Assembly: GCA_000004695.1 (NCBI GenBank)
Contig: CM000151.3
Coordinates: 3,936,001 to 4,000,000, forward strand
Direction: 5' to 3'
DNA length: 64,000 bases
Source of the DNA: Dictyostelium discoideum
Lineage: Eukaryota
Of this stretch, positions 2,571-61,500 are shown piece by piece (the stretch's first letter is position 1; each line of letters starts with the position of its first letter). The notes under the pieces are model-generated. The model made no database searches. It was not told where the DNA came from and was given only the letters and a program-made list of their open reading frames with translations. The position numbers were made by a program, and so were the translations under genes.

Positions 2571-2971
2571 CCACCACACACCCACACCTCCAAAATTGTA
2601 CTTATTTATTAACTTACCTAACACATTGCCATGGCAATCATAATCAATCAATCAATAATTAAAAAAAAAAAAAGAAAAATTTAAATAAAAAAAAAATATA
2701 AAAAATATGTTATCAATCTTCTTGTGTAATTGAGTTTTTGGAAATTTTTTTTTTTTTGACCCAAGCATAAATTAAGATATTCCCATCATTTTGGAACACC
2801 AGTTTTGTTTTTTTTTTTTTTTTTAATATGTACGAGTTTTTTTTTATTTTTTGTTTTTGTTTTTTGTTTTTGTTGTTTTTGTTGTTTCTTGTTTTTTTTT
2901 TTTTTATTATTTTCTAATATTACTAAGGTTTATTATATATATATAAATGTTTTTTTCTTTTTACTATTATT

Positions 2972-3599
2972 TTAAAGGTCTCTGAGAAGTGCGGCAGCTC
3001 TCTTTCCAGTTTGTGGTGGCATCCATCTTGTAAAGTATACATTTTGATGTGGTGATGCAAGGAAACTATAATAATAATAATTATAATAATATAGTAGTAA
3101 TTATTTGTTAATAACTAAACTAATTTACCATATGGTTCTCCTCCTCCTCCTCCTCCTCCTCCTATATATTATTTGTTGGGAAAATTTCTGAATAAATAAT
3201 AAATAAATATAAAAATCTATAATCTTACTTAATATCATTCTCTGCTTGTAAAATTGGTAAAATCATTGATAATCTTCTCTTTTCTTCTTCTTCTCTTGCG
3301 CTAAATTTGCAAAAAATAATAAAACAAAGAGTTAGACATATGATCATATGTAGCAATTATAAAAAAAAGAATTTAAATATTATTATTATTTATTATTTAT
3401 TATTGTTATTATTTTATTCTTACTTTCTTTCAACTTTATCTGAAAAGAAAATGTAAGTACCAACAGCCATAATTGAAAAGACACCTGCGAAAATGTAGGC
3501 ACCTGGAATTGGTGAAGTTGAAGTTCTAGCATATTTTAATTTTGGGAAACCTCCAGCTGGTGGTAAATCTTGTACCCATTTTTGTCTATATCCAACCAT
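2972..3599 (-). CDS. ndufa13: NADH dehydrogenase (ubiquinone) 1 alpha subcomplex subunit 13 (GRIM-19/NDUFA13). Three exons: 3424..3599, 3229..3300, 2972..3065.
   Basis: Minus-strand translation gives MVGYRQKWVQDLPPAGGFPKLKYARTSTSPIPGAYIFAGVFSIMAVGTY...REEEEKRRLSMILPILQAENDI...FLASPHQNVYFTRWMPPQTGKRAAALLRDL*. This matches the GRIM-19 PPGG / TM helix / RRRL..LLQAE.D motifs. Splice phases are consistent (2,2). Confidence 0.8.
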
Positions 3600-3967
3600 T
3601 TTTTTATATTATGTAAATGTATGATTCAAATTGTGATTGAAAAAAAAAAAAAAAAAAAAAATTAAAAAATTCAAAAAAATTCAAAAAAAAAAATAAAAAA
3701 AAAAAAAAAAAATATGAGCGACAATGCTCTTTCTCTCTCTCCTCTAGAAAATGAAAATATGAGAAAACAGTATTTACAATTTTTTTATTTTTATTGAATA
3801 TTAAAAAATCCCTTTTTTTTTTGGTGTCATTATTAAATTCATTTTTCGTTTTTCGTTTTTTGTTTTTTTTTTTGTGTGCATCTTAAAAATTTAGATCTTT
3901 CCATTTCTTTTTTTTTTTTTTTTTTTTTTACTTTTTATGATATAGTCAAATTTGGTGAGTTTTTTTT

Positions 3968-4520
3968 TAACAACCATATAATCTTGTGTACATTCTAGCT
4001 AATGAGTCATGACCTTTAACATCACCATTTCTAATTAAATTACCTGCGTCACAATTTAAAGGGCTATCAGCCTCTGGTAATGATAATAATGCTATAATTG
4101 ATCTACAAACTGACTGAAGGGTATAAATTGCTGACCATGATGTTTTTAATAAATCTAAACAAATTTCACCAGTCTAAATATATATATTATTTTTTTAAAA
4201 AAAAAGTGTGTGTGTTAGATATTATTATTCTTTTATTATTTTTATTTATTTCTTTATTTATAGAGATTGAGATTTACCTTAAAATGAATATTTGGATGAA
4301 AAATTTTTGTAACAAATTTAATAGTTGGAGGTTGTAATGGATAGTTTGTAGGAACTGATATATCTAATTCAAATTTACCATTTTCATATGGTGTATCTGG
4401 TGGTCCCTTTATAATTGCTACCCATCTATATAAATCACTTTCATCTCTTGGATATAATAAAATGTCTTCAAATTCTTCATTTTGTAAGACTTTATATTCT
4501 TTCATTAATCTTGCTGCCAT
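3968..4520 (-). CDS. pex4: Peroxisomal ubiquitin-conjugating enzyme E2 (peroxin-4 / Pex4 / Ubc10-like). Two exons: 4278..4520, 3968..4173.
   Basis: Translation gives MAARLMKEYKVLQNEE...TPYENGKFELDISVPTNYPLQPPTIKFVTKIFHPNIHFK | TGEICLDLLKTSWSAIYTLQSVCRSIIALLSLPEADSPLNCDAGNLIRNGD... The UBC fold HPN motif and active-site Cys are present. It resembles yeast Pex4 closely (KEYK, TPYEN.F, SPLD.D.GN.IR.GD). Donor GTAAAT, acceptor TTTAG. Confidence 0.75.
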
Positions 4521-4912
4521 TTTTTATTTTTTTTTTATTTGTTAATTTTATTTATTATTATTATTATTATTATTGTTTTTTTGTATTCTTAAAAAAAAAA
4601 AAAACTTCCTTCTCGTGTTCTTTTGTGTTTTTTTTTTGTGTTGTTAAACGTAACTTCTTTGTGAGTGTGTTTTCTTTTTTTTAATTTAAAAAAAAAATAT
4701 ATTTTTTTTATTTTTTTTATTATTTTTTTTATTTTTTTTTTTTATTTTTTTTTTGCAACCTACTTGAAAAAAGAAAAAAAAAAAAAAAAAAAAAAATTAA
4801 AAAAAAAAAAAAGAAATTAGATAGGTTTTTTTTTTTTTTTTTTTATTAATACGTTATCACATTCACAATTTTAATTTTACTTATTTATTTTATTTATTTA
4901 TTTATTTATTTT

Positions 4913-4945
<33 letters not shown>

Positions 4946-5345
4946 CAAAACCACATTTCCCCAATCACAACAATAAACCACCTTTAAAAAAAAAAACAAA
5001 AAACAAAAAACAAAATTTTTTATTTTTAAACCATCTATCTTTTTTTTTTTTTTCCATCCATTAAAATAATAATATTATTATTTATTTTTAAACAATTTAT
5101 TAGCAATATTTATTTTTTTTATCCATTTTAATTTTTATACATATAAAAAAACAATAAACATAATTAATTTACACATTAAAATAAAATATATATTTTCTTT
5201 TTTAATTAAAAAACAAATCGATAATAATTTATAAAAATATACTATATAACAAAATAAAATAAAATAAAATAAAATAAAATAAAATAAAATAAAAAAAAAC
5301 AATAATTTGCCTTTTTTTTTTTAATTTTACCCTATTCATTTTTAA
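4521..5345. promoter_or_regulatory. Divergent AT-rich promoter region shared by pex4 (minus strand) and the DHHC gene (plus strand). It contains (AAAAT)n at 5252-5290.
   Basis: Head-to-head ATGs at 4520 and 5346 with an 825-bp AT/homopolymer-rich spacer. Inference from gene arrangement only. Confidence 0.4.
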
Positions 5346-6811
5346 ATGAACCTATACAACAATAGTAATAGTAGTGGTAGTAGTAATAGTAGTAGCAGCA
5401 GTAACAATAAAACTAATATTGACTATAATGATATAAATAATAATGATATCTTAACTCCCAAAGGATATCACACAAGTATATATATAGACGATAATGATTT
5501 AAATAATAATCAAATTATCAACAAAAATAATAACAACAACCATAATCGCAATAATAATAATAATAATAATAATAACAATAACCATAATAACCCGAAGAAA
5601 ATGGTAATAAATTTAAATCCATCTGGAATATTTATACCTTTAATGAATGATTTTGATGATGATGATGATGACGAACAAGAAAGTTTAATAAAAAATAATA
5701 AAATTACAATACCAACAATAAATTCACAAATAGCGATACCAATATTAAATAATAACGATAATAATAATAATAGTAATAATAAAACTGAACAAACAACAAC
5801 AACAACAACAATAATAAAGAATACAACGATTTTTAATAATAAAACTATTTCATTTGGTAGAATTGGATTTAGGTCAATTGTAATATTTTTAATATTAGTA
5901 CCATATATTTATATATTGAATTTTGCAATATTTCCATGGACAGTTAATTATGAAACAGAAAGAAAGGGTAAAATTCATAGTTTCATATCTATGGCATTGG
6001 TGATTCAAATGTTATGTAATTATTATTTATGTTCAACTACTGATCCTGGTAGTTTCAAAGACACCATATCACCATCATACTATCTATTACATCCAATCTC
6101 TTCAACCGATTCAAATGATCATAAGAAATGGTGTAACAAATGTAATCATCAAAAACCAGAACGAGCTCATCATTGTAGATATTGTAATAGATGTGTACTA
6201 AGAATGGATCATCATTGTCAATGGTTACAAAATTGTATTGGTTTATTTAATCAAAAATATTTTGTACTCTTTTTATTCTATACTTCAATATCAATTATTT
6301 ATTTCTTTACTTTATTAATTAAAAGATCAATTGAATTAGTAACAAAATATACAATGGTAATTATTATTATAATAATTATTATTATAATAATAATTATAAT
6401 AATAATAATAATATATTAGGATTAATTTAGAAATTATAATTTATTAACTTAATTTATTATTATTATTATTTTATAAAATAGGAAAAAACATTACCAAGTT
6501 TTGATTTATTACATTTATTTTTATTAGGAATTTTAATTATTATTTTAATTATAGCTGGTATTTCAATAATGGCATTGCTTTGGACTCAAATAGCATTAAT
6601 TAGTAAAGGTTTAACAACGATTGAACATGAAGATAAAAAAAGAAAATATCAACAACCAAATTATTTAAATTTATATAAAAAGTATGATAAAGGTTCAATA
6701 ATTTCAAATTTCTCAATTGTATTTGGAAATTTATCTTTTTTATGGTTATTACCAACCATACCAAATAATTTAAAAATAACTTCAAAAAAAGGTGACATTT
6801 TTATAGTTTAA
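5346..6811 (+). CDS. DHHC-type zinc-finger protein S-palmitoyltransferase. Two exons: 5346..6356, 6482..6811.
   Basis: DHHC-CRD signature CNKCNHQKPERAHHCRYCNRCVLRMDHHCQWLQNCIGLFNQKYF is flanked by four predicted TM helices. The N-terminus is N-rich low complexity. An in-frame intron (GTAATT...ATAG) removes the poly-I run at the end of ORF 5346..6419. Confidence 0.85.
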
Positions 6812-51187: not shown

Positions 51188-52660
<1,473 letters not shown>

Positions 52661-53395: not shown

Positions 53396-54691
<1,296 letters not shown>

Positions 54692-54734
54692 TGAGCTAAA
54701 TGGGAAAATGAATTTAAAATTATTACAAACTCCA

Positions 54735-55848
54735 TTAAAATATTGGGAAATTCCAATTCAAGCCATATAAAAACAAATTCACCAACTCCAATGGTGTATA
54801 AAGTTCATCAGTATAAGAATTCATTTCTAATTGATTTTTTAAACCTAGATATATATCACCACTTATGTTTGCAGTTAAAATTGAGTTTAATCTTAATAAA
54901 TGCTTTGGTTTTTGAATGTTTGGAATGTTTTTAACCCAAAATGGGTGTGACGGTTTAAGGAATTTTGAAATTAATTCTTTCATTGAATTATCTGTATCAA
55001 TTACTAAACCTTCACAAACTAATTGAACACAACCATCTTTTTTTATAAATTTAGGATTAGTTTGTGATTTTCCAACCGAACTTGCATAATACCTTAATGC
55101 TGATACTGCTCTATTTTTATATTGTTCTACTTCTTCATTTTCACTTACCAATACATTATAAACATTTAATTTCTTAAAAATTAATTCATTTTCATTTTCA
55201 ATTTCATTTTCATTTTCATTTTCATTTTCATTTTCATTTTCATTTTCATTTTCATTTTGAATTTCATTTCCAATTTCATTTTCAATTTTATTTTTAAAAT
55301 TATTTTTATTTTCAATTTTATATTCAGAAAATCTAATGAATTGTTCAATTTTATTTGATAATTTAAATTTGTTTAAACCAGTTGGTGCTGGTAATTTTGT
55401 AAAAAAAATTTTTTCTTCTTTTGAATTACTTAAAATTAAATCTCTTAATAGTTTATAATTGTATTCACCAGTTTCTTCATTATAAAGTGGTTTTGTAAAT
55501 TCTGATAAAGTTTTAGTTTCTTTATTGAAATTTATATTTTCATTGATGAATGAAATATACCCTGAAATTAAATTTTCTACTGTGCAACCACTAACTTTTA
55601 CAAAATGATCAGTACCACCTAAAATCCAAAGATTTGCAAAATCTACTAAAATTTGTCTACCAACACCATTTTGAAAATTAAGATCTTTAAAATCAATTTC
55701 TTTAGAAATGGTTTCACCAATTATAAATCTTTGAATAGATTCTTTAAGTTTATCAACATCAGTTATTAAATCTGATTCCTTATTCCAAATATTAATTGAT
55801 TTATTTTTTGCTAATATTGAAAATAAAATTACATCTGAATCACTTTTT

Positions 55849-55879
<31 letters not shown>

Positions 55880-56659
55880 TTAATTATTAATAATTTAAAT
55901 TATAATAATAATAATTATTATAATATTTACCTTGAATAAATTAAAATTGGTTCTCTAGGTTTAATATTATCACTATTAATCATTTCAAAAATTTTCCATT
56001 CACCTTCACCATAACGATCATGTGGTGAAATATAAACATTTTCTAAATCTTCGAAATAACCTTTCCACTTAAAATTTTTAGTAATTGAATATAAAATTGC
56101 TTTTACATAACCCATAGTATCTGTACCTGATGTAAATGAATCTGATGTATAACATTTATCTTCAACTATTGATGATTGATCAAACCAACTATCTTCAACA
56201 AGTTGAAGATCTGATTTATTTTCATCTCCCTCTTGTAAATTTAATTTTTTAGTATTAAGTTTATGTAAAAAATTTGGTAATGCATCATTCTAAAAAATAT
56301 TTTTTGAAAAAAAAAAATTATTAATATTATGAAGAAAATAAAAAAATAAAAAAAATAATAATTACTTTAAATCTTCTATCTTTTTGCTCACTAAATTTTG
56401 ATATTGGACCTGGACCATCAACTGCAAAGAAAATTGATTTTTCAACATCAACCTTATCAAAAAGTGAATAGATTTGTAAATTTACAATATCAAATAAAGT
56501 TCTATCTGGTTTTGTTTTAGAATATTTGTATTTTCTATACAATAAATTATTTACATCAACGAATAAATGATCAACCTTTATTTTTCCATTACCCCTTTCT
56601 TTAATACATGTACCTTGGAATTTTGAATTTATAAATCCAGATAAACCTGGCACTGTCAT
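54735..56659 (-). CDS. Divergent XRN-family 5'-3' exoribonuclease-like protein (XRN_N domain). Three exons: 56366..56659, 55931..56289, 54735..55842.
   Basis: XRN N-terminal hallmarks: MTVPGLSGFI (XRN: MGVPKFF), KIKVDHLFVDVNNLLY (LYLDMNGIIH), IFFAVDGPGPISKFSEQKDRRFK ([23 protein letters not shown]), VYISPHDRYGEGEWKIFEMIN (GEGEHKI), PILIYSSDSDVILFSILA (YGLDADLIML). Introns are phase 0 and phase 2 with GTAATT/GTAAAT donors. Several otherwise invariant residues are substituted. Confidence 0.55.
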
Positions 56660-56985: not shown

Positions 56986-58203
56986 TTAATTTATTTTAAT
57001 AAAATTATTATTATTAAAATCTTTTAAAATTGAATAAAATATAAATGATTTTTTAAAAACTATTGGATTAATTTGATTCTTTTGATTAATATAATGGTTA
57101 TATAATTTCTCTAAAAATTTCTTTATAAATTCATTGTTATTATTATTAATATTATTAATATTATTATTATCATCAATGAAATTATTATTAATTGTAATTA
57201 AAATGAATAAAATGTTCAAAAATGATATTTGTACTCTCCAATGTTGATTTAAATCAATCATATTAATCATTACACTTTCATTACAATTATCAATTAAAGA
57301 TAGTGATAAAATAGGTTGCTGTTTAATTATTCTATAAAATGCTGAACTTGATGAAATTTTTATATTATTATTTAATTCATCTTCTAAATTATTATCATCC
57401 TTTATATATTTTAAAAATTGATTCAATAATTGTTTACTTTTAATTGAAAAATATTTTATATAAATTGGACGTGTTATTAATAGATTATCAAATGTTTTAA
57501 TTAAATATAATAATATAGTTTTATCAATTGCTTTATTTGTTGTTATTATTGAACTAAGTGAAATTTGTGGAAATAATGATGGATTTGGTATTGATGATAA
57601 TAATGATGGTGAAGTAGATGATGGCGATGATGGCGACGATGACGATGATGACGATGATGGTGGTGGTGATGAAGATGGTGATGATGAATCATTTATTAAA
57701 AATAAATTTAACAATGTGTTTATATATTTCTCTAATGAAAGTATACCCCATTTAGTTGAAAGTGTAATTTCATCCAATGTTGAAAAATAAAATAAAATTT
57801 CACCAAATGTTGATACTAATTTCCTTTTTAATGATAATTGTATATTATTATTATTATTAAAAGATGATATTTCATTATTTAAGTATTCTAATAATTGTAT
57901 TATTGAATCTTTTGAATTTATTGATAGGTTATTTGACTTTCCAATAATTATACCTAATAAATGAATAATTTTTACTTTTATAATTGTATCATTTGAAATT
58001 TTAATTTGTTGTACTAATTGTTTTATTAATATCGTATGTTCATTTATTATTATTAATAATTTTTCAATAATTGATGAATATTGATTATTTGATAATAATA
58101 ATAAATCTATTAAATAATTTAATAATGTTAATTTCGTAATAATTGTAGTTTTAGTTTTAATAAATTTTGATATAAAATTAAAATATTCAATAATTTCTTG
58201 ATA

Positions 58204-58281
<78 letters not shown>

Positions 58282-58607
58282 TAACAATTGTAAATCTTTA
58301 ATTGTTTTATTAAAAATTATTGGAACTGAAGAAGAAGAAGAGGAAGAACAAGATGATAAAGATGATAAAGGTGGTGATGATGGTCTATTTGGAGATATAA
58401 TTGGAGAAGCTTCAAAATCAATTGAATGATCGAATTCACTAATTAATCTTGTAAAATTATTATTTTCAATTAAATTTGAAAAATCATTTAAACTATTTGT
58501 TTGTGAAATATTTAATGGTGGAATTTTCACTTTATTTAACCTAATAACTTGATTTTCTAAATTTGGTGATGATATATTATTTGGTTGTTGTTGTTGTTGA
58601 AATGATA

Positions 58608-58680
<73 letters not shown>

Positions 58681-59145
58681 ATTTAAAAGTTGTAAAGTTG
58701 TATTTGAAGATTTATTTATAATTTCATTTACTTGTTGAGTTTGTTGATTTTTGAAAAATGGATGAATAAATAATTTTGGCCATGTTATTCTTTTTTGAGG
58801 ATTTTTCTCTAAAATTTTTGAAATTAAGTCATTGAAATGTTGTTGTTGTATTAAATCATTATTATCAGATGGTAATCTAATGATTGGATCTAAATAATTG
58901 TCGTATATTATTGACTCTATTAATTTGGTTGCATCATTAGAGTAGAATGGATAATATCCAGTTATACATTTAAATAGTAATACACCAAATGACCAAATAT
59001 CTGATGAAAAACTATATGTATATCCTTTTAAAACCTCTGGTGATAAATAATAAATTGATTCATTTATATTATTATTATTATCATTATCAATATTATTATT
59101 ATATAAATTAAATATTTGTTGTCTTGATGTTATCATTATTTGTTG

Positions 59146-59214
<69 letters not shown>

Positions 59215-59919
59215 TTCAATTAAAATTGAATTATTTATTGAATTTAATTTAAATATTCCTTTTGAATCAATTAAAATATTTGATGGTTTTAAATCAGCAT
59301 ATATAATATTATTAGAGTGTAAATAGTATAAAGCATTCATTATATTTTTTGAGAATATAATTGAAGTATCAATTGATAAATATTGATCAGAATTTAAAAA
59401 TTCTTTAAATGAATATTCAAATGATATTCTTTTAACTAAATAATAAGTACTTAAATTTTCTTTAACATTTTCATCAACATAATTTATTTGATCTTGATTT
59501 TGATTTTGATGATCTGATTTTATTCTTTTAAATGATTCTTTTATTGGCATATATTTTCATTTTTTAATTTTAAATTTTTATAAATCTCGATCTATTTTAA
59601 TTATTTTTTTGTCATAAAAAAAAAATTAAAAAAAAAAAAAGTGAAAAAAAAAAAAATTAAAAAAAATAAAAAAAAAAAGGAAAATGGACTGGTTAAAAAA
59701 TTTATCTACTTTTTTTTTTTTTTGTCGAGATAAAAAAAAAAAAAAAAAATTAATATTTACCTCTTTTTTATAATTATTATCGTTTTTTGGTCTACCAATT
59801 ATTAAATAATAATTAAAAGAATTTTGTTTTCTTGCTTTTGCAACATAATTTATATTATTAATAAGATTCTCCTCTGAAATATCGAAATCTTCAACAATAT
59901 AATAATTTGAAATCTTCAT
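56986..59919 (-). CDS. ULK4/Fused-family pseudokinase with C-terminal HEAT/ARM-like repeats. The main exon is 56986..59537/59550. The 5' exon is about 59761/59796..59919, with an uncertain junction.
   Basis: The large exon has kinase subdomains VI-XI with degenerate catalytic motifs (ALYYLHSNNIIYADLKPSNILI instead of HRDLKPxN; KLNSINNS instead of DFG), then APE-like YLSPEV, then Leu-rich helical repeats to the C-terminus. The upstream exon MKISNYYIVEDFDISEENLINNINYVAKARKQNSFNYYLII aligns with the ULK4 N-lobe ([33 protein letters not shown]) and lacks the GxGxxG loop. Confidence 0.55.
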
Positions 59920-59946
59920 TTTGGCATTGTATTTTATACTATATCT

Positions 59947-60442: not shown

Positions 60443-61344
60443 TTATTGTGATGGTTGTGAAGATTTTTTATAAAAGAATAATGAATTTGCATTTTTAAAT
60501 TCTTTATCATGAATTAAATTTACATCAATTAAATCATCAGTCCAAGCAGCAGTGAAATCTATGGATAGTTCATTGATTAGGTTATCATAACGTTTGAAGA
60601 TGCAATCAAAGCCTTTTGGAGTTACGTTCTTTGCCTCGACACTACATCTATGTTGACCATTAATATTCGAGTAATCCAATGATTTTATACCTAACGATAT
60701 TTTTGGAATTCCGATAAACTCTTTTTCAAATTGAACTTTACGGGTATACTCTAGAGGTGATTTCTCATTTCCCAAAGTTTTATCGCCAATTGATATAGTA
60801 CCCATTTGAATCTGTGGTGAAAGTTCTTCAAACTCTTTTGTATAAAGTTCCCAACGTAATCCGATATCGTTCTTCCACTGTACTGGATGTATTGAAATTG
60901 ATCTTGCTATAATTGGTGGATCCAACGTCTGACTTACAATAGACTCATTATCAGTATTTCCTTTAAAAATTTCACCATTCTTATATTCATACCATTTCTT
61001 ATTATTTAAACTATATCTAATTATATAACTTGTTACAAATGATTCTGAATTACCTGATCCTTTTTATTTTTTAAAAAAAAAAAAAAAAATTAATAAAAAT
61101 TAATAATAAAATTATTAATAATAAGTAATAAAAATTATTTTACCTTGTAAATCCAATTTAACAAATTTCATTGGAATCATTGATGATGCAATAATAAATT
61201 GATTTCTATCACTAATTGATGGTTTCCATCCTTCACCTCCTTTACCCATACCTTTTCTATCATATTTAAAATTTAGAATACCTGATTTTATTAAATTAAA
61301 AAAAATAAAAGATTAGTTTTTAGGAAATGTTTAAAAATAAAATT

Positions 61345-61388
<44 letters not shown>

Positions 61389-61500
61389 TACTTTACCTTG
61401 TTTTACACCATGGTCTGCATCAAAATCACTTGAAGATCTTAAATTTAAGCATGCAAATGCAAAACATGGAACTAAATCTTGATTACTAAAATCTGTCATT
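60443..61500 (-). pseudogene. Discoidin-family lectin gene (N-terminal F5/8 type C discoidin domain + C-terminal H-type lectin domain) with an apparent +1 frameshift in the first coding segment. Exons: 61397..61500 (frameshifted), 61144..61281, 60443..61059.
   Basis: Exons 2-3 translate to GILNFKYDRKGM...KLDLQGSGNSESFVTSYIIRYSLNNKKWYEYKNGEIFKGNTDNESIVSQTLDPPIIARSISIHPVQWKNDIGLRWELYTKE... plus an H-type lectin tail, closely paralleling discoidin I ([23 protein letters not shown]...[27 protein letters not shown]). The 5' segment reads MTDFSNQDLVPCFAFACLNL in one frame and RSSSDFDADHGVKQ| in the +1 frame; both halves are discoidin-like. The switch occurs at TTTAAAG (61441-61447), and an in-frame TGA follows in the ATG frame. 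Confidence 0.6.

What the first reader, a model, noticed from the sequence alone, without database searches (positions are those of the whole stretch)
56986..59919. ULK4/Fused-like pseudokinase with HEAT repeats and a splice junction that cannot be drawn with canonical in-phase sites
The large exon encodes a kinase C-lobe with degenerate HRD (YAD) and DFG (NSI) motifs followed by about 500 aa of Leu-rich helical repeats. This is the ULK4 pseudokinase architecture; the active Fused homolog is a different gene (my recollection of its Dictyostelium symbol is unreliable). The upstream exon (59919 downward) encodes an N-lobe-like segment lacking GxGxxG. An in-frame TGA sits 9 nt upstream of the ATG at 59550, and the first AG downstream of it requires a phase-1 acceptor at 59537. 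That pairs only with a weak donor GTAGAC at 59795, not with the strong GTAAAT at 59760, which is phase 0. Either a non-canonical splice, an extra micro-exon, or independent initiation at 59550 is involved. Pseudokinase scaffolds of this type are poorly characterised in amoebozoa.
Basis: partly seen in the sequence, partly recalled or inferred. Interest (0 to 1): 0.5.

Follow-up and report, generated by a model that had tools for sequence, protein, structure and literature searches.

The report
ULK4-like pseudokinase gene, one-base frameshift
This is a known Dictyostelium "borderline kinase" gene (DDB0230007) that turns out to be a ULK4-like dead kinase with a helical-repeat tail. Its puzzling splice junction is caused by one missing base in this copy of the sequence, not by unusual splicing.

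Summary
In the window, the ATG-59919 exon joins the 854-aa ORF only through the weak donor GTAGAC (59795).

The cause is ordinary. That gives a 169-nt, phase-0 intron. Exon 2 then reads IEIYKNLKLKNENIC, which aligns with the kinase αC-β4 segment. One base later it falls out of frame with the big ORF.

A second public assembly (GCA_054883475.1, 99.7% identical over 21.5 kb) has one extra A between C59547 and C59546. With it, the canonical intron gives an uninterrupted 921-aa protein, the length annotated there. So the window carries a 1-nt deletion. It may be a reference error or a strain-specific frameshift; these tools cannot tell which.

The 854-aa ORF is DDB0230007 of the 2006 Dictyostelium kinome ("Other-Unique", inactive, borderline).

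The ULK4 reading is largely supported:
- Human ULK4 is the best PDB match (100 bits; next 73).
- The C-terminus aligns colinearly with ULK4-like HEAT regions (hhalign 44; shuffles 17±2.8).
- The C-terminus models as an ARM/HEAT solenoid.
- It fails Pfam HEAT_ULK4.

A role as a Fused/TsuA scaffold is inference only. Interest is modest.

The parts
59761..59919 (-). Exon 1. ATG at 59919-59917, 53 codons (MKISNYY...NDNNYKKE). It encodes a degenerate N-lobe with no GxGxxG and ends on the putative αC Glu (E53).
   Evidence: The gene called in L001 starts at the same ATG. MAFFT with TsuA, Atg1 and Fused aligns KKE with the αC 'RQE'.
59592..59760 (-). The single intron: GTAAAT...AAAATAG, 169 nt, phase 0, 11.2% GC, homopolymer-rich.
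   Evidence: Size and GC fit the criteria for Dictyostelium introns given in PMC1420674 (<15% GC, 60-250 nt). L001 gene span 2935 nt minus 169 nt equals 922 codons, matching the annotated 921-aa product.
56986..59591 (-). Exon 2, running to the TAA stop at 56988-56986. In the window it is split by the frameshift into a 15-codon stretch (IEIYKNLKLKNENIC, then Q and a stop) and the 854-aa ORF.
59546..59547 (-). Frameshift site. The window reads TGCCAAT. The second assembly reads TGCACAAT, with an extra A between C59547 and C59546. That restores ...NENICTIKESFKRIK... in one frame.
59541..59543 (-). TAA that ends the exon1+exon2 frame in the window. It would give a 69-aa product, MKIS...NENICQ.
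59557..59559 (-). TGA in the frame of the 854-aa ORF, 9 nt upstream of ATG 59550.
58747..59919 (-). Pseudokinase domain (intron included in these coordinates), ending at HPFFKN.
   Evidence: Pfam Pkinase scores 99.2 bits for the ORF alone. It scores 114.5 bits when the exon-1 and frame-A residues are added. Best PDB match is ULK4.
59278..59301 (-). Catalytic loop YADLKPSN. HRD has become YAD. The Asp, Lys and Asn are retained.
   Evidence: The same string is recorded for DDB0230007 in the kinome table.
59233..59241 (-). DFG-equivalent S-I-N. The Mg-binding Asp is lost.
   Evidence: Spacing of 18 residues from the YAD Asp, and alignment to TsuA CDFG and ULK4 SNFC.
59035..59232 (-). Extended activation segment of about 66 residues from SIN to SPE. 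It includes a run of 23 Asn (59214-59146).
58204..58746 (-). Low-complexity linker containing poly-Ser (58677-58609) and poly-Asn (58278-58204).
56989..58203 (-). C-terminal all-helical ARM/HEAT-like region (405 aa). A Ser/Pro-rich insert lies at 57690-57604. Conserved motifs are LKRKLVSTFGEILFYFST (57831-57778), the W in STKWGIL (57759-57739) and LIKTFDN (57504-57484).
59916..59927 (-). Three-codon upstream ORF ATGCCAAAATGA. Its stop overlaps the main ATG.
   Evidence: direct reading.

Best explanation
The locus is one two-exon gene on the minus strand, D. discoideum DDB0230007.

Gene structure. Exon 1 (59919-59761) is joined to exon 2 (59591-56986) by an ordinary 169-nt GT-AG intron in phase 0. 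In this window, exon 2 lacks one A between C59547 and C59546. The reading frame from ATG 59919 therefore stops at TAA 59543, and the rest of the gene appears as a separate 854-aa ORF starting at ATG 59550. With the base present, as in a second assembly, the gene encodes a 921-aa protein. I lean towards a base-calling error in the window sequence, at about 60%. A genuine frameshift allele of the sequenced strain is about 35-40%. These tools cannot decide between the two.

The protein has three parts:
1. An N-terminal ULK-family pseudokinase domain closest to ULK4. It has no Gly-rich loop, and no β3 Lys in the favoured alignment register. HRD has become YAD and DFG has become SIN. The αC Glu and the catalytic-loop Asp, Lys and Asn are retained. 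The activation segment is about 66 residues and Asn-rich.
2. A poly-Ser and poly-Asn linker.
3. About 400 aa of ARM/HEAT-type helical repeats, homologous to the start of the ULK4 repeat region.

Inferred mechanism, not shown. The protein is a non-catalytic scaffold. By analogy with ULK4-STK36 in mammals and Leishmania, the pseudokinase domain would bind the Fused orthologue TsuA. The helical repeats would recruit microtubule-associated partners or substrates.
For: Gene structure
- Three-frame translation shows IEIYKNLKLKNENIC directly after the ATAG acceptor.
- MAFFT aligns 'YKKE|IEIYKNLKLKNENICTIKESF' with the αC-β4 segment of TsuA ([23 protein letters not shown]), Atg1 and Anopheles Fused.
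- Adding these residues raises the Pfam Pkinase score from 99.2 to 114.5 bits.
- Locus L001 (NCBI GCA_054883475.1) is 99.68% identical to the window over 21.5 kb. Across the gene it differs only by the one extra A.
- With that A, the canonical intron gives 2766 nt, which is 921 aa plus stop. This equals the product length annotated for L001 2762-5696.
- The restored Thr in 'NICTIKE' matches human ULK4 'NIVTFHE'.
- An indel can repair the frame only in about 14 nt, between TGA 59557 and TAA 59543. One of about a dozen indels in 21.5 kb landing there by chance has odds of about 1e-3 per indel.

Identity
- Table S2 of PMC1420674 lists this exact ORF as DDB0230007, starting MPIKESF.

Family
- PDB phmmer: ULK4 100 bits, next chain 73.
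- Local phmmer: ULK4 C-lobe 90.8, TsuA 74.6, Atg1 50.2 bits.
- hhalign against 15 ULK4-like proteins carrying Pfam HEAT_ULK4: kinase part Prob 99.2. A colinear 324-column C-terminal hit has P 1.2e-4.
- The C-terminus alone scores 44.0. The 140 shuffles average 17 with sd 2.8 and a maximum of 28.7.
- That ULK4-like family itself hits ULK4 best in the PDB.

Mechanism by analogy
- Ulk4 binds Stk36 through its pseudokinase region and bridges it to substrate (PMC10721220).
- ULK4 pseudokinase-specific BioID partners include STK36.
- ULK4-Fused is described as an ancient partnership, and TsuA is microtubule-associated (PMC10295485).
Against: - There is no transcript evidence for the 59761|59591 junction.
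- Only one comparison assembly was available, and its organism or strain is not named by the tool.
- The window and L001 differ by 16 substitutions, so they may be different strains and the deletion could be a true polymorphism.
- The N-lobe alone has no significant match: nothing in the PDB, and hhalign P = 0.047.
- Its register is ambiguous. 'YVAK28' could be a β3 motif that retains the Lys.
- The C-terminus fails Pfam HEAT_ULK4 and every other Pfam model.
- The C-terminus finds nothing in an exhaustive phmmer search of 1.84 billion representatives.
- hhalign probability for the C-terminus is only 46-63%.
- The Dictyostelium repeat region covers only about the first third of the ULK4 repeat region.
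- No dictyostelid orthologue was retrievable.
- The TsuA-scaffold function is pure analogy.
Confidence: 0.75

Rival explanations
1. The deletion is real in the sequenced laboratory strain. The gene there is a frameshift allele. ATG 59919 yields only a 69-aa peptide. At best, an N-lobe-less 854-aa protein is made by initiation at ATG 59550, which is the old dictyBase/kinome model.
For: - The kinome paper's DDB0230007 sequence starts at MPIKESF, so the reference used in 2006 had the same frame break.
- The window and L001 differ by 16 substitutions in 21.5 kb, mostly in non-coding AT-rich DNA. That looks like strain polymorphism.
- The indel is not in a homopolymer run.
Against: - A second frame-breaking 1-nt difference lies 4.8 kb away in the XRN-like gene. 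It too is intact in L001. Two loss-of-function indels in 9 genes is more than expected for true alleles, and reference errors in kinase genes are documented.
- ATG 59550 has a poor context (T at -3).
- ATG 59550 lies upstream of the stop of the preceding frame.
Confidence: 0.37
2. One reading: a weak, non-consensus splice (GTAGAC 59795 to AG 59538, 258 nt, phase 1), or another non-canonical splice or micro-exon, joins the exons to give an 891-aa protein.
For: It is the only GT-AG combination that keeps one frame in the window as given.
Against: - It would remove GRPKNDNNYKKE and IEIYKNLKLKNENI, which align with the β3-αC-β4 elements of ULK-family kinases.
- It ignores a consensus donor and acceptor pair in phase with each other.
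- The 891-aa product is not in the protein collection.
- The second assembly needs no such splice.
Confidence: 0.03
3. The protein is a lineage-specific, kinase-motif-containing orphan, 'Other-Unique' as in the 2006 kinome. Its resemblance to ULK4 is generic ULK-family similarity plus compositional similarity of AT-rich helical tails.
For: - Goldberg et al. classed it Other-Unique and a borderline kinome member.
- Pfam HEAT_ULK4 is not matched.
- The exhaustive search of the C-terminus found nothing.
- The comparison family comes from AT-rich ciliate-like metagenome contigs. The ciliate origin is my inference.
Against: - There is a 27-bit margin for ULK4 over every other PDB kinase.
- Composition-preserving global and local shuffles never exceed 28.7, against the real score of 44.
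- The motif series is colinear: LLNY, RK..ST.GE.LF..T, W, LKT.(E/D)N, YF.
- The domain order is the same.
Confidence: 0.15

Closest known systems
ULK4 (Unc-51-like kinase 4) / plant RUNKEL family; human ULK4 pseudokinase structures 6TSZ and 6U5L
   Same: - Both have an N-terminal ULK-type kinase fold that has lost the Gly-rich loop function, the β3 Lys and the DFG Asp while keeping the HRD Asp.
- Both have an extended activation segment.
- The C-terminal signature PQKR(I/L)TW..L..H.F is shared.
- Both have a C-terminal ARM/HEAT solenoid, with colinear motifs at its start.
- ULK4 is the best PDB match.
   Different: - The Dictyostelium protein is much shorter: 921 aa, against about 1260 aa for the ULK4-like family compared here.
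- Only about the first third of the repeat region is present.
- It does not reach Pfam HEAT_ULK4.
- Its catalytic loop is more canonical (DLKPSN, against DISPRK in human ULK4).
- Its N-lobe is more degenerate, and W64 and E66 of the ULK4-specific network are not conserved.
- It has long poly-N and poly-S tracts.
- The organism has no cilia.
Fused/STK36 family; Dictyostelium tsunami (TsuA, DDB0229382)
   Same: Same ULK family. TsuA is the second-best local match at 74.6 bits. It has a similar C-lobe and HPF(F/V)K ending, and an N-terminal kinase followed by a long tail.
   Different: TsuA has intact VACK, HRD and DFG motifs and is predicted active. It is a separate gene and the likely partner rather than the identity of this protein.
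Kinome entry DDB0230007 (Goldberg et al. 2006, PMC1420674)
   Same: Its sequence matches the window's 854-aa ORF over the roughly 470 residues shown before the table entry is cut off. It is predicted inactive, with 'YADLKPSN' recorded.
   Different: That model lacks the N-lobe, and the entry is classed Other-Unique, 'kmc', a borderline kinase. The 921-aa model and the ULK4 affinity are not in that paper.
Masked frameshifts in Dictyostelium kinase gene models (PMC1420674, pseudogene section)
   Same: [quoted passage not shown] Automated models hide it by truncating the ORF or inventing introns. This locus shows exactly that pattern.
   Different: This gene was not among the 15 pseudogenes or the 'corrected DNA' models listed there.

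Membership tests
Eukaryotic protein kinase fold (Pfam PF00069) | Significant match to the Pkinase profile above the gathering score. | tested here: met
   99.2 bits for the 854-aa ORF and 114.5 bits with the upstream residues added. The cutoff is 31.7.
Pseudokinase (catalytically dead ePK) | Loss of the DFG Asp (PKA D184). | tested here: met
   S-I-N occupies the DFG position, 18 residues after the YAD Asp. There are no gaps against TsuA or ULK4.
Pseudokinase (catalytically dead ePK) | Loss of the β3 (VAIK) Lys (PKA K72). | tested here: inconclusive
   The favoured register puts I41 of 'YYLII' there (MAFFT; hhalign to the ULK4-like family). A BLOSUM global alignment to human ULK4 instead matches 'INYVA' to 'INFVA', which leaves K28 adjacent to the site. 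The N-lobe alone is not significantly alignable.
Pseudokinase (catalytically dead ePK) | Loss of the GxGxxG loop, and HRD Arg. | tested here: met
   No Gly occurs in residues 1-41 of the N-lobe. HRD is replaced by YAD.
ULK4 / RUNKEL | Kinase domain closer to ULK4 than to ULK1-3, STK36 or other kinases. | tested here: met
   In the PDB search: ULK4 100.1 bits, ULK1 64.6, ULK3 64, ULK2 61.7, best non-ULK 72.8. Locally: ULK4 C-lobe 90.8, TsuA 74.6, Atg1 50.2. No full phylogeny was done.
ULK4 / RUNKEL | C-terminal HEAT repeats matching Pfam HEAT_ULK4 (PF23606). | tested here: not met
   There is no hit at E <= 1 for the whole ORF, nor at E <= 10 for the C-terminus in three pieces. The Pfam domain maps to P0141 residues 908-1014. 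That lies beyond the part of the repeat region (about 520-770) to which the Dictyostelium tail aligns.
ULK4 / RUNKEL | Homology of the post-kinase region to the ULK4 repeat region, in the same order. | tested here: met
   hhalign gives 324 colinear columns, P 1.2e-4. The score is 44 against 17±2.8 for 140 shuffles. Probability is only 46-63%, so support is moderate.
ULK4 / RUNKEL | ULK4-specific N-lobe residues (R22, R23, K24, I27, F29; F61, W64, E66, L71 of human ULK4; Preuss et al. 2020). | tested here: inconclusive
   By my reading of register 1 (after the alignments): R23 stays R, K24 stays K, I27 becomes F, F29 becomes Y, and R22 becomes A. In the BLOSUM alignment: F61 becomes I, W64 becomes S, E66 becomes K.
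ARM/HEAT α-solenoid | Stacked helical-hairpin repeat fold. | tested here: met
ULK4-Fused scaffold pair | Physical interaction with the Fused orthologue, and microtubule or centrosome association. | not testable with these tools
   Known for mammals and Leishmania. There are no data for Dictyostelium.

The most novel reading that the evidence does not exclude
Dictyostelium, an organism without cilia, keeps a ULK4-type pseudokinase. It has independently lost its active-site residues and has a very long activation segment. Preuss et al. reported that combination as characteristic of metazoan ULK4. They found that protist and plant orthologues mostly retain canonical residues. In addition, the standard laboratory reference strain may genuinely carry a frameshift that removes the N-lobe, the part that binds Fused/STK36 in mammals. 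The model strain would then be a natural hypomorph for the partner of the polarity kinase TsuA.
Probability: 0.3. Interest if true: 0.5.

Novelty: new member of a known kind. Interest (0 to 1): 0.3.

Why it matters
Practical value: the gene model for DDB0230007 should be a 921-aa, two-exon protein with a complete, though dead, kinase fold. The truncated 854-aa 'borderline kinase' model should be replaced. The reference base at 59546/59547 needs checking, as does a second frame-breaking base at 54745 in the neighbouring XRN-like gene.

Biological value: reclassifying an 'Other-Unique' orphan as ULK4-like gives Dictyostelium both halves of the ULK4-Fused pair. That pair acts on microtubule structures in animals and kinetoplastids, and has been proposed to do so in plants. 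Dictyostelium would then be a tractable, cilium-free system for asking what the pair does outside cilia. TsuA already has a chemotaxis and polarity phenotype.

None of this changes general understanding. It is an annotation correction plus a plausible family assignment.

Tried and rejected
- Exact-sequence look-ups of the 854-aa ORF, the 891-aa weak-donor model and the 921-aa corrected model in the 15-billion-protein collection: none is present.
- Two word-indexed homology searches, one with the raw ORF and one with a low-complexity-trimmed full-length query. They returned only generic kinases (RSK, AKT, CDPK-like) and no dictyostelid orthologue. The raw query was swamped by poly-N and poly-S words.
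- Exhaustive phmmer of the C-terminal 405 aa against 1.84 billion representatives: zero hits.
- Pfam on the C-terminus, whole and in halves, at E <= 10: nothing relevant.
- Single-sequence AF2 of the C-terminus: pLDDT 48.6. Foldseek against the PDB gave no significant hit.
- The afdb50 fold library was unavailable.
- The N-lobe alone against the PDB: no kinase hit.
- The look-up of encoding contigs found no record for the 854-aa ORF, the 97-aa exon-1 ORF or four other window ORFs. Only one comparison assembly could therefore be obtained.
- Programmed frameshifting was considered and rejected. A -1/+2 shift would be needed, there is no slippery heptamer, and the other assembly simply has the base.
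- A tiny second intron was rejected. No GT lies between 59591 and the TAA at 59543, and Dictyostelium introns are at least about 60 nt.
- GC content does not separate exon from intron well here, because the whole gene is only 18% GC.
Full report
**Observation**

The minus strand between 59919 and 56986 was read directly and its ORFs listed.
- An 854-aa ORF runs from ATG 59550 to the stop at 56988-56986.
- An upstream ORF contains ATG 59919 in the same genomic frame.
- A TGA sits at 59559-59557, 9 nt before ATG 59550.
- The first downstream AG is at 59539/59538, which forces a phase-1 acceptor.

I enumerated every GT..AG pair that joins the ATG-59919 frame to the big ORF without a stop. Only two donors work. 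GTAGAC at 59795 pairs with six alternative acceptors, the first starting the exon at 59537. GTCCAT at 59689 reads through poly-T intron-like sequence. The consensus donor GTAAAT at 59760 is phase 0 and finds no partner.

The same three-frame translation shows a good acceptor, AAAATAG|A, at 59593/59592. It is in phase with GTAAAT 59760. The frame behind it reads IEIYKNLKLKNENICQ and then stops at TAA 59543-59541.

This is not random sequence. In a MAFFT alignment with Dictyostelium TsuA and Atg1 and an Anopheles Fused, 'YKKE|IEIYKNLKLKNENIC.IKESF' lines up with the αC helix and β4 strand: TsuA [23 protein letters not shown]. The match runs across both the intron position and the point where the frame is lost. 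Adding these residues raises the Pfam Pkinase score from 99.2 to 114.5 bits, and the match then begins at profile position 40.

The intron so defined (59760-59592) is 169 nt and 11.2% GC. That is within the range quoted for Dictyostelium introns in PMC1420674. The two coding stretches are offset by exactly one base.

**Resolution by a second assembly**

A neighbouring single-exon RING/ZZ protein (51188-52660, minus strand) was found by exact look-up on one contig of NCBI assembly GCA_054883475.1. That gave locus L001.

L001 is 99.68% identical to the window over 21.5 kb, with 16 substitutions and 12 gap openings. Nine of the twelve are length differences in A or T runs.

A gene is called in L001 at 2762-5696 with a 921-residue product. 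It starts at the equivalent of ATG 59919 and ends at the same stop. Across the gene itself the two sequences differ at a single position. The window has TATGCCAATAAAAG and L001 has TATGCACAATAAAAG, an extra A between C59547 and C59546.

With that base, exon 1 plus the canonical 169-nt intron plus exon 2 gives 2766 nt. That is 921 codons plus a stop, and it reads ...NDNNYKKE|IEIYKNLKLKNENICTIKESFKRIKSDHQ... with no internal stop. The length equals the annotated product. The restored Thr in NICTIKE matches NIVTFHE of human ULK4.

The frame can be repaired only by an indel between TGA 59557 and TAA 59543, about 14 nt. Chance placement of an assembly error in L001 at exactly that spot is therefore very unlikely. 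L001 shows the functional state, and the window carries a 1-nt deletion.

**Error or allele?**

This cannot be settled here.

Points favouring a reference error:
- A second frame-breaking 1-nt difference lies 4.8 kb away. The window has CCC at 54745 and L001 has CC. It cuts the neighbouring XRN_N-containing gene in the window (...GLNWNFPIF*), while L001 reads through.
- Two such lesions in nine genes is a lot for true alleles.
- The kinome paper documents models that needed 'corrected genomic DNA'.

Points favouring a real allele:
- The substitutions between the two assemblies look like strain polymorphism.
- The indel is not in a homopolymer.
- The 2006 model already began at MPIKESF.

I put error at about 60% and a real allele at about 35-40%.

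**Identity**

Table S2 of Goldberg et al. 2006 (PMC1420674) contains this ORF as DDB0230007, starting MPIKESFKRIKSDHQ... It is classed Other / Other-Unique, quality 'kmc' (kinase motif-containing). The main text names it among seven 'borderline members of the kinome'. This identifies the window as D. discoideum. In that paper the ULK family has only Atg1 and tsunami.

**Family: kinase domain**

phmmer of the corrected kinase region against all PDB sequences puts human ULK4 pseudokinase (6TSZ, 6U5L) first at 1.9e-27 and 100 bits. The next chain scores 73 bits, and ULK1, ULK2 and ULK3 score 62-65. The alignment covers the C-lobe and the unusually long activation segment.

Against a small local set, the ULK4 C-lobe scores 90.8 bits, TsuA 74.6 and Atg1 50.2.

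Motifs:
- No GxGxxG.
- YAD in place of HRD, with the Asp, Lys and Asn of the catalytic loop kept (DLKPSN).
- S-I-N in place of DFG, at the exact canonical spacing.
- SPE in place of APE.
- αC Glu present as E53, the last codon of exon 1.

The β3 Lys is absent in the register favoured by MAFFT and by hhalign to ULK4-like proteins: 'ARKQNSFNYYLII' against 'TRKxQxIxYIAVK'. A BLOSUM alignment to human ULK4 instead pairs INYVA with INFVA and leaves K28 next to the site. The N-lobe alone has no significant match anywhere. I therefore mark the VAIK test inconclusive.

The activation segment from SIN to SPE is about 66 residues, including 23 Asn.

**Family: C-terminus**

Sequence searches were negative. 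Pfam gives nothing, including HEAT_ULK4. An exhaustive phmmer search of 1.84 billion representatives gives nothing.

One weak hit from the second homology search, P0141, carries Pfam HEAT_ULK4. Using it as a query retrieved a large family of about 1260-aa proteins from metagenome contigs. These combine a degenerate kinase (HCN, DFK) with HEAT_ULK4. Fifteen of them were aligned as A1. The best PDB match of that profile is also ULK4, at 121 bits.

hhalign of A1 against the Dictyostelium C-terminus gives:
- Score 42-44, P 7e-5 to 2e-4, over 140 columns. The motif LNRKAIATLGEYLFFVATQ matches LKRKLVSTFGEILFYFSTL.
- Against the full 921-aa protein, the kinase hit has Prob 99.2. A second, colinear hit of 324 columns aligns family positions 410-741 with Dictyostelium residues 395-823, P 1.2e-4.
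- In the shuffle control, seventy global and seventy 20-residue-window shuffles of the C-terminus score 17±2.8, with a maximum of 28.7. The reversed sequence scores 14.6. The similarity is therefore not compositional.

MAFFT independently lines up LLNY, the T.GE..F motif, an invariant Trp, LKT.(E/D)N and YF.

The Dictyostelium tail corresponds only to about the first third of the ULK4 repeat region. It stops before the part covered by the Pfam model, which explains the Pfam miss.

**Mechanism**

Shown:
- The gene structure.
- The frame break and its repair in the second assembly.
- The kinase fold, and loss of the DFG Asp and the Gly loop.
- ULK4 as the closest solved relative.
- A solenoid-type tail homologous to ULK4-like proteins.

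Inferred: the protein is a non-catalytic scaffold. In mammals, Ulk4 binds Stk36 through its pseudokinase region and bridges it to substrate through its regulatory region (PMC10721220). BioID assigns STK36 to the ULK4 pseudokinase domain and microtubule or centrosome proteins to the ARM region (Preuss et al.). In Leishmania, ULK4 and Fused interact. That paper describes the pairing as an ancient partnership and notes that the Dictyostelium Fused orthologue tsunami is microtubule-associated (PMC10295485).

The natural hypothesis is that DDB0230007 partners TsuA. I give this about 35%. If the N-lobe is truly missing in AX4, that interaction would probably be lost there.

**Comparison with what is known**

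Neither the Leishmania paper nor the Tetrahymena paper mentions a Dictyostelium ULK4.

[quoted passage not shown] The Dictyostelium protein, and the metagenomic family used here, would be non-metazoan examples of degeneration. That is mildly interesting.

**Verdict**

- The splice puzzle is explained by a one-base deletion, not by unusual splicing.
- The ULK4-like interpretation is largely supported, with one formal membership criterion (Pfam HEAT_ULK4) not met.
- This is a new member of a known family and a gene-model correction for a known locus.
- Interest is about 0.3.

Noticed in passing
window 54745 (minus-strand gene spanning about 53396-56659); L001:7923: A second frame-breaking single-base difference. 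The window has CCC where the other assembly has CC. This splits the neighbouring XRN_N-containing gene (exon 1 at 56327-56659, Pfam XRN_N 69.5 bits). The window reads ...GLNWNFPIF* followed by a separate ORF starting MNRYFFELV. L001 reads straight through and is annotated as one 1032-aa product.
   Followed up: partly
window 59916-59927 (minus strand): A three-codon upstream ORF, ATG CCA AAA TGA. Its stop codon overlaps the main start codon (ATGA arrangement) of the pseudokinase gene.
   Followed up: no
window about 60443-61490 (minus strand); L001:1194-2242: The upstream neighbour is a three-exon discoidin-like lectin gene of 285 aa (Pfam F5_F8_type_C + H_lectin in the L001 annotation). Between the assemblies it differs only in the length of an intronic poly-T run.
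   Followed up: partly
window 41174-62697 compared with L001: The two assemblies differ by 16 substitutions, almost all in AT-rich non-coding DNA. Nine indels are in A/T homopolymer runs of 3-8 nt. This pattern is compatible with different strains, or with homopolymer length uncertainty in one assembly.
   Followed up: partly
window 53396-54691 (minus strand): The 3' part of the XRN-like gene encodes several hundred residues that are almost entirely Asn, with periodic INNS and KNNN units. It is an extreme low-complexity tail even by Dictyostelium standards.
   Followed up: no
proteins P0141 and P0185-P0303 (metagenome contigs, about 4 kb each): A large, well-conserved family of about 1260-aa ULK4-like proteins from ENA and JGI metagenomes. 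They have HCN in place of HRD, DFK in place of DFG, no Gly-rich loop, a retained β3 Lys (IAVK) and a short β3-αC spacing. They are probably ciliate genes. They form another non-metazoan ULK4 lineage with a partly degraded active site.
   Followed up: partly
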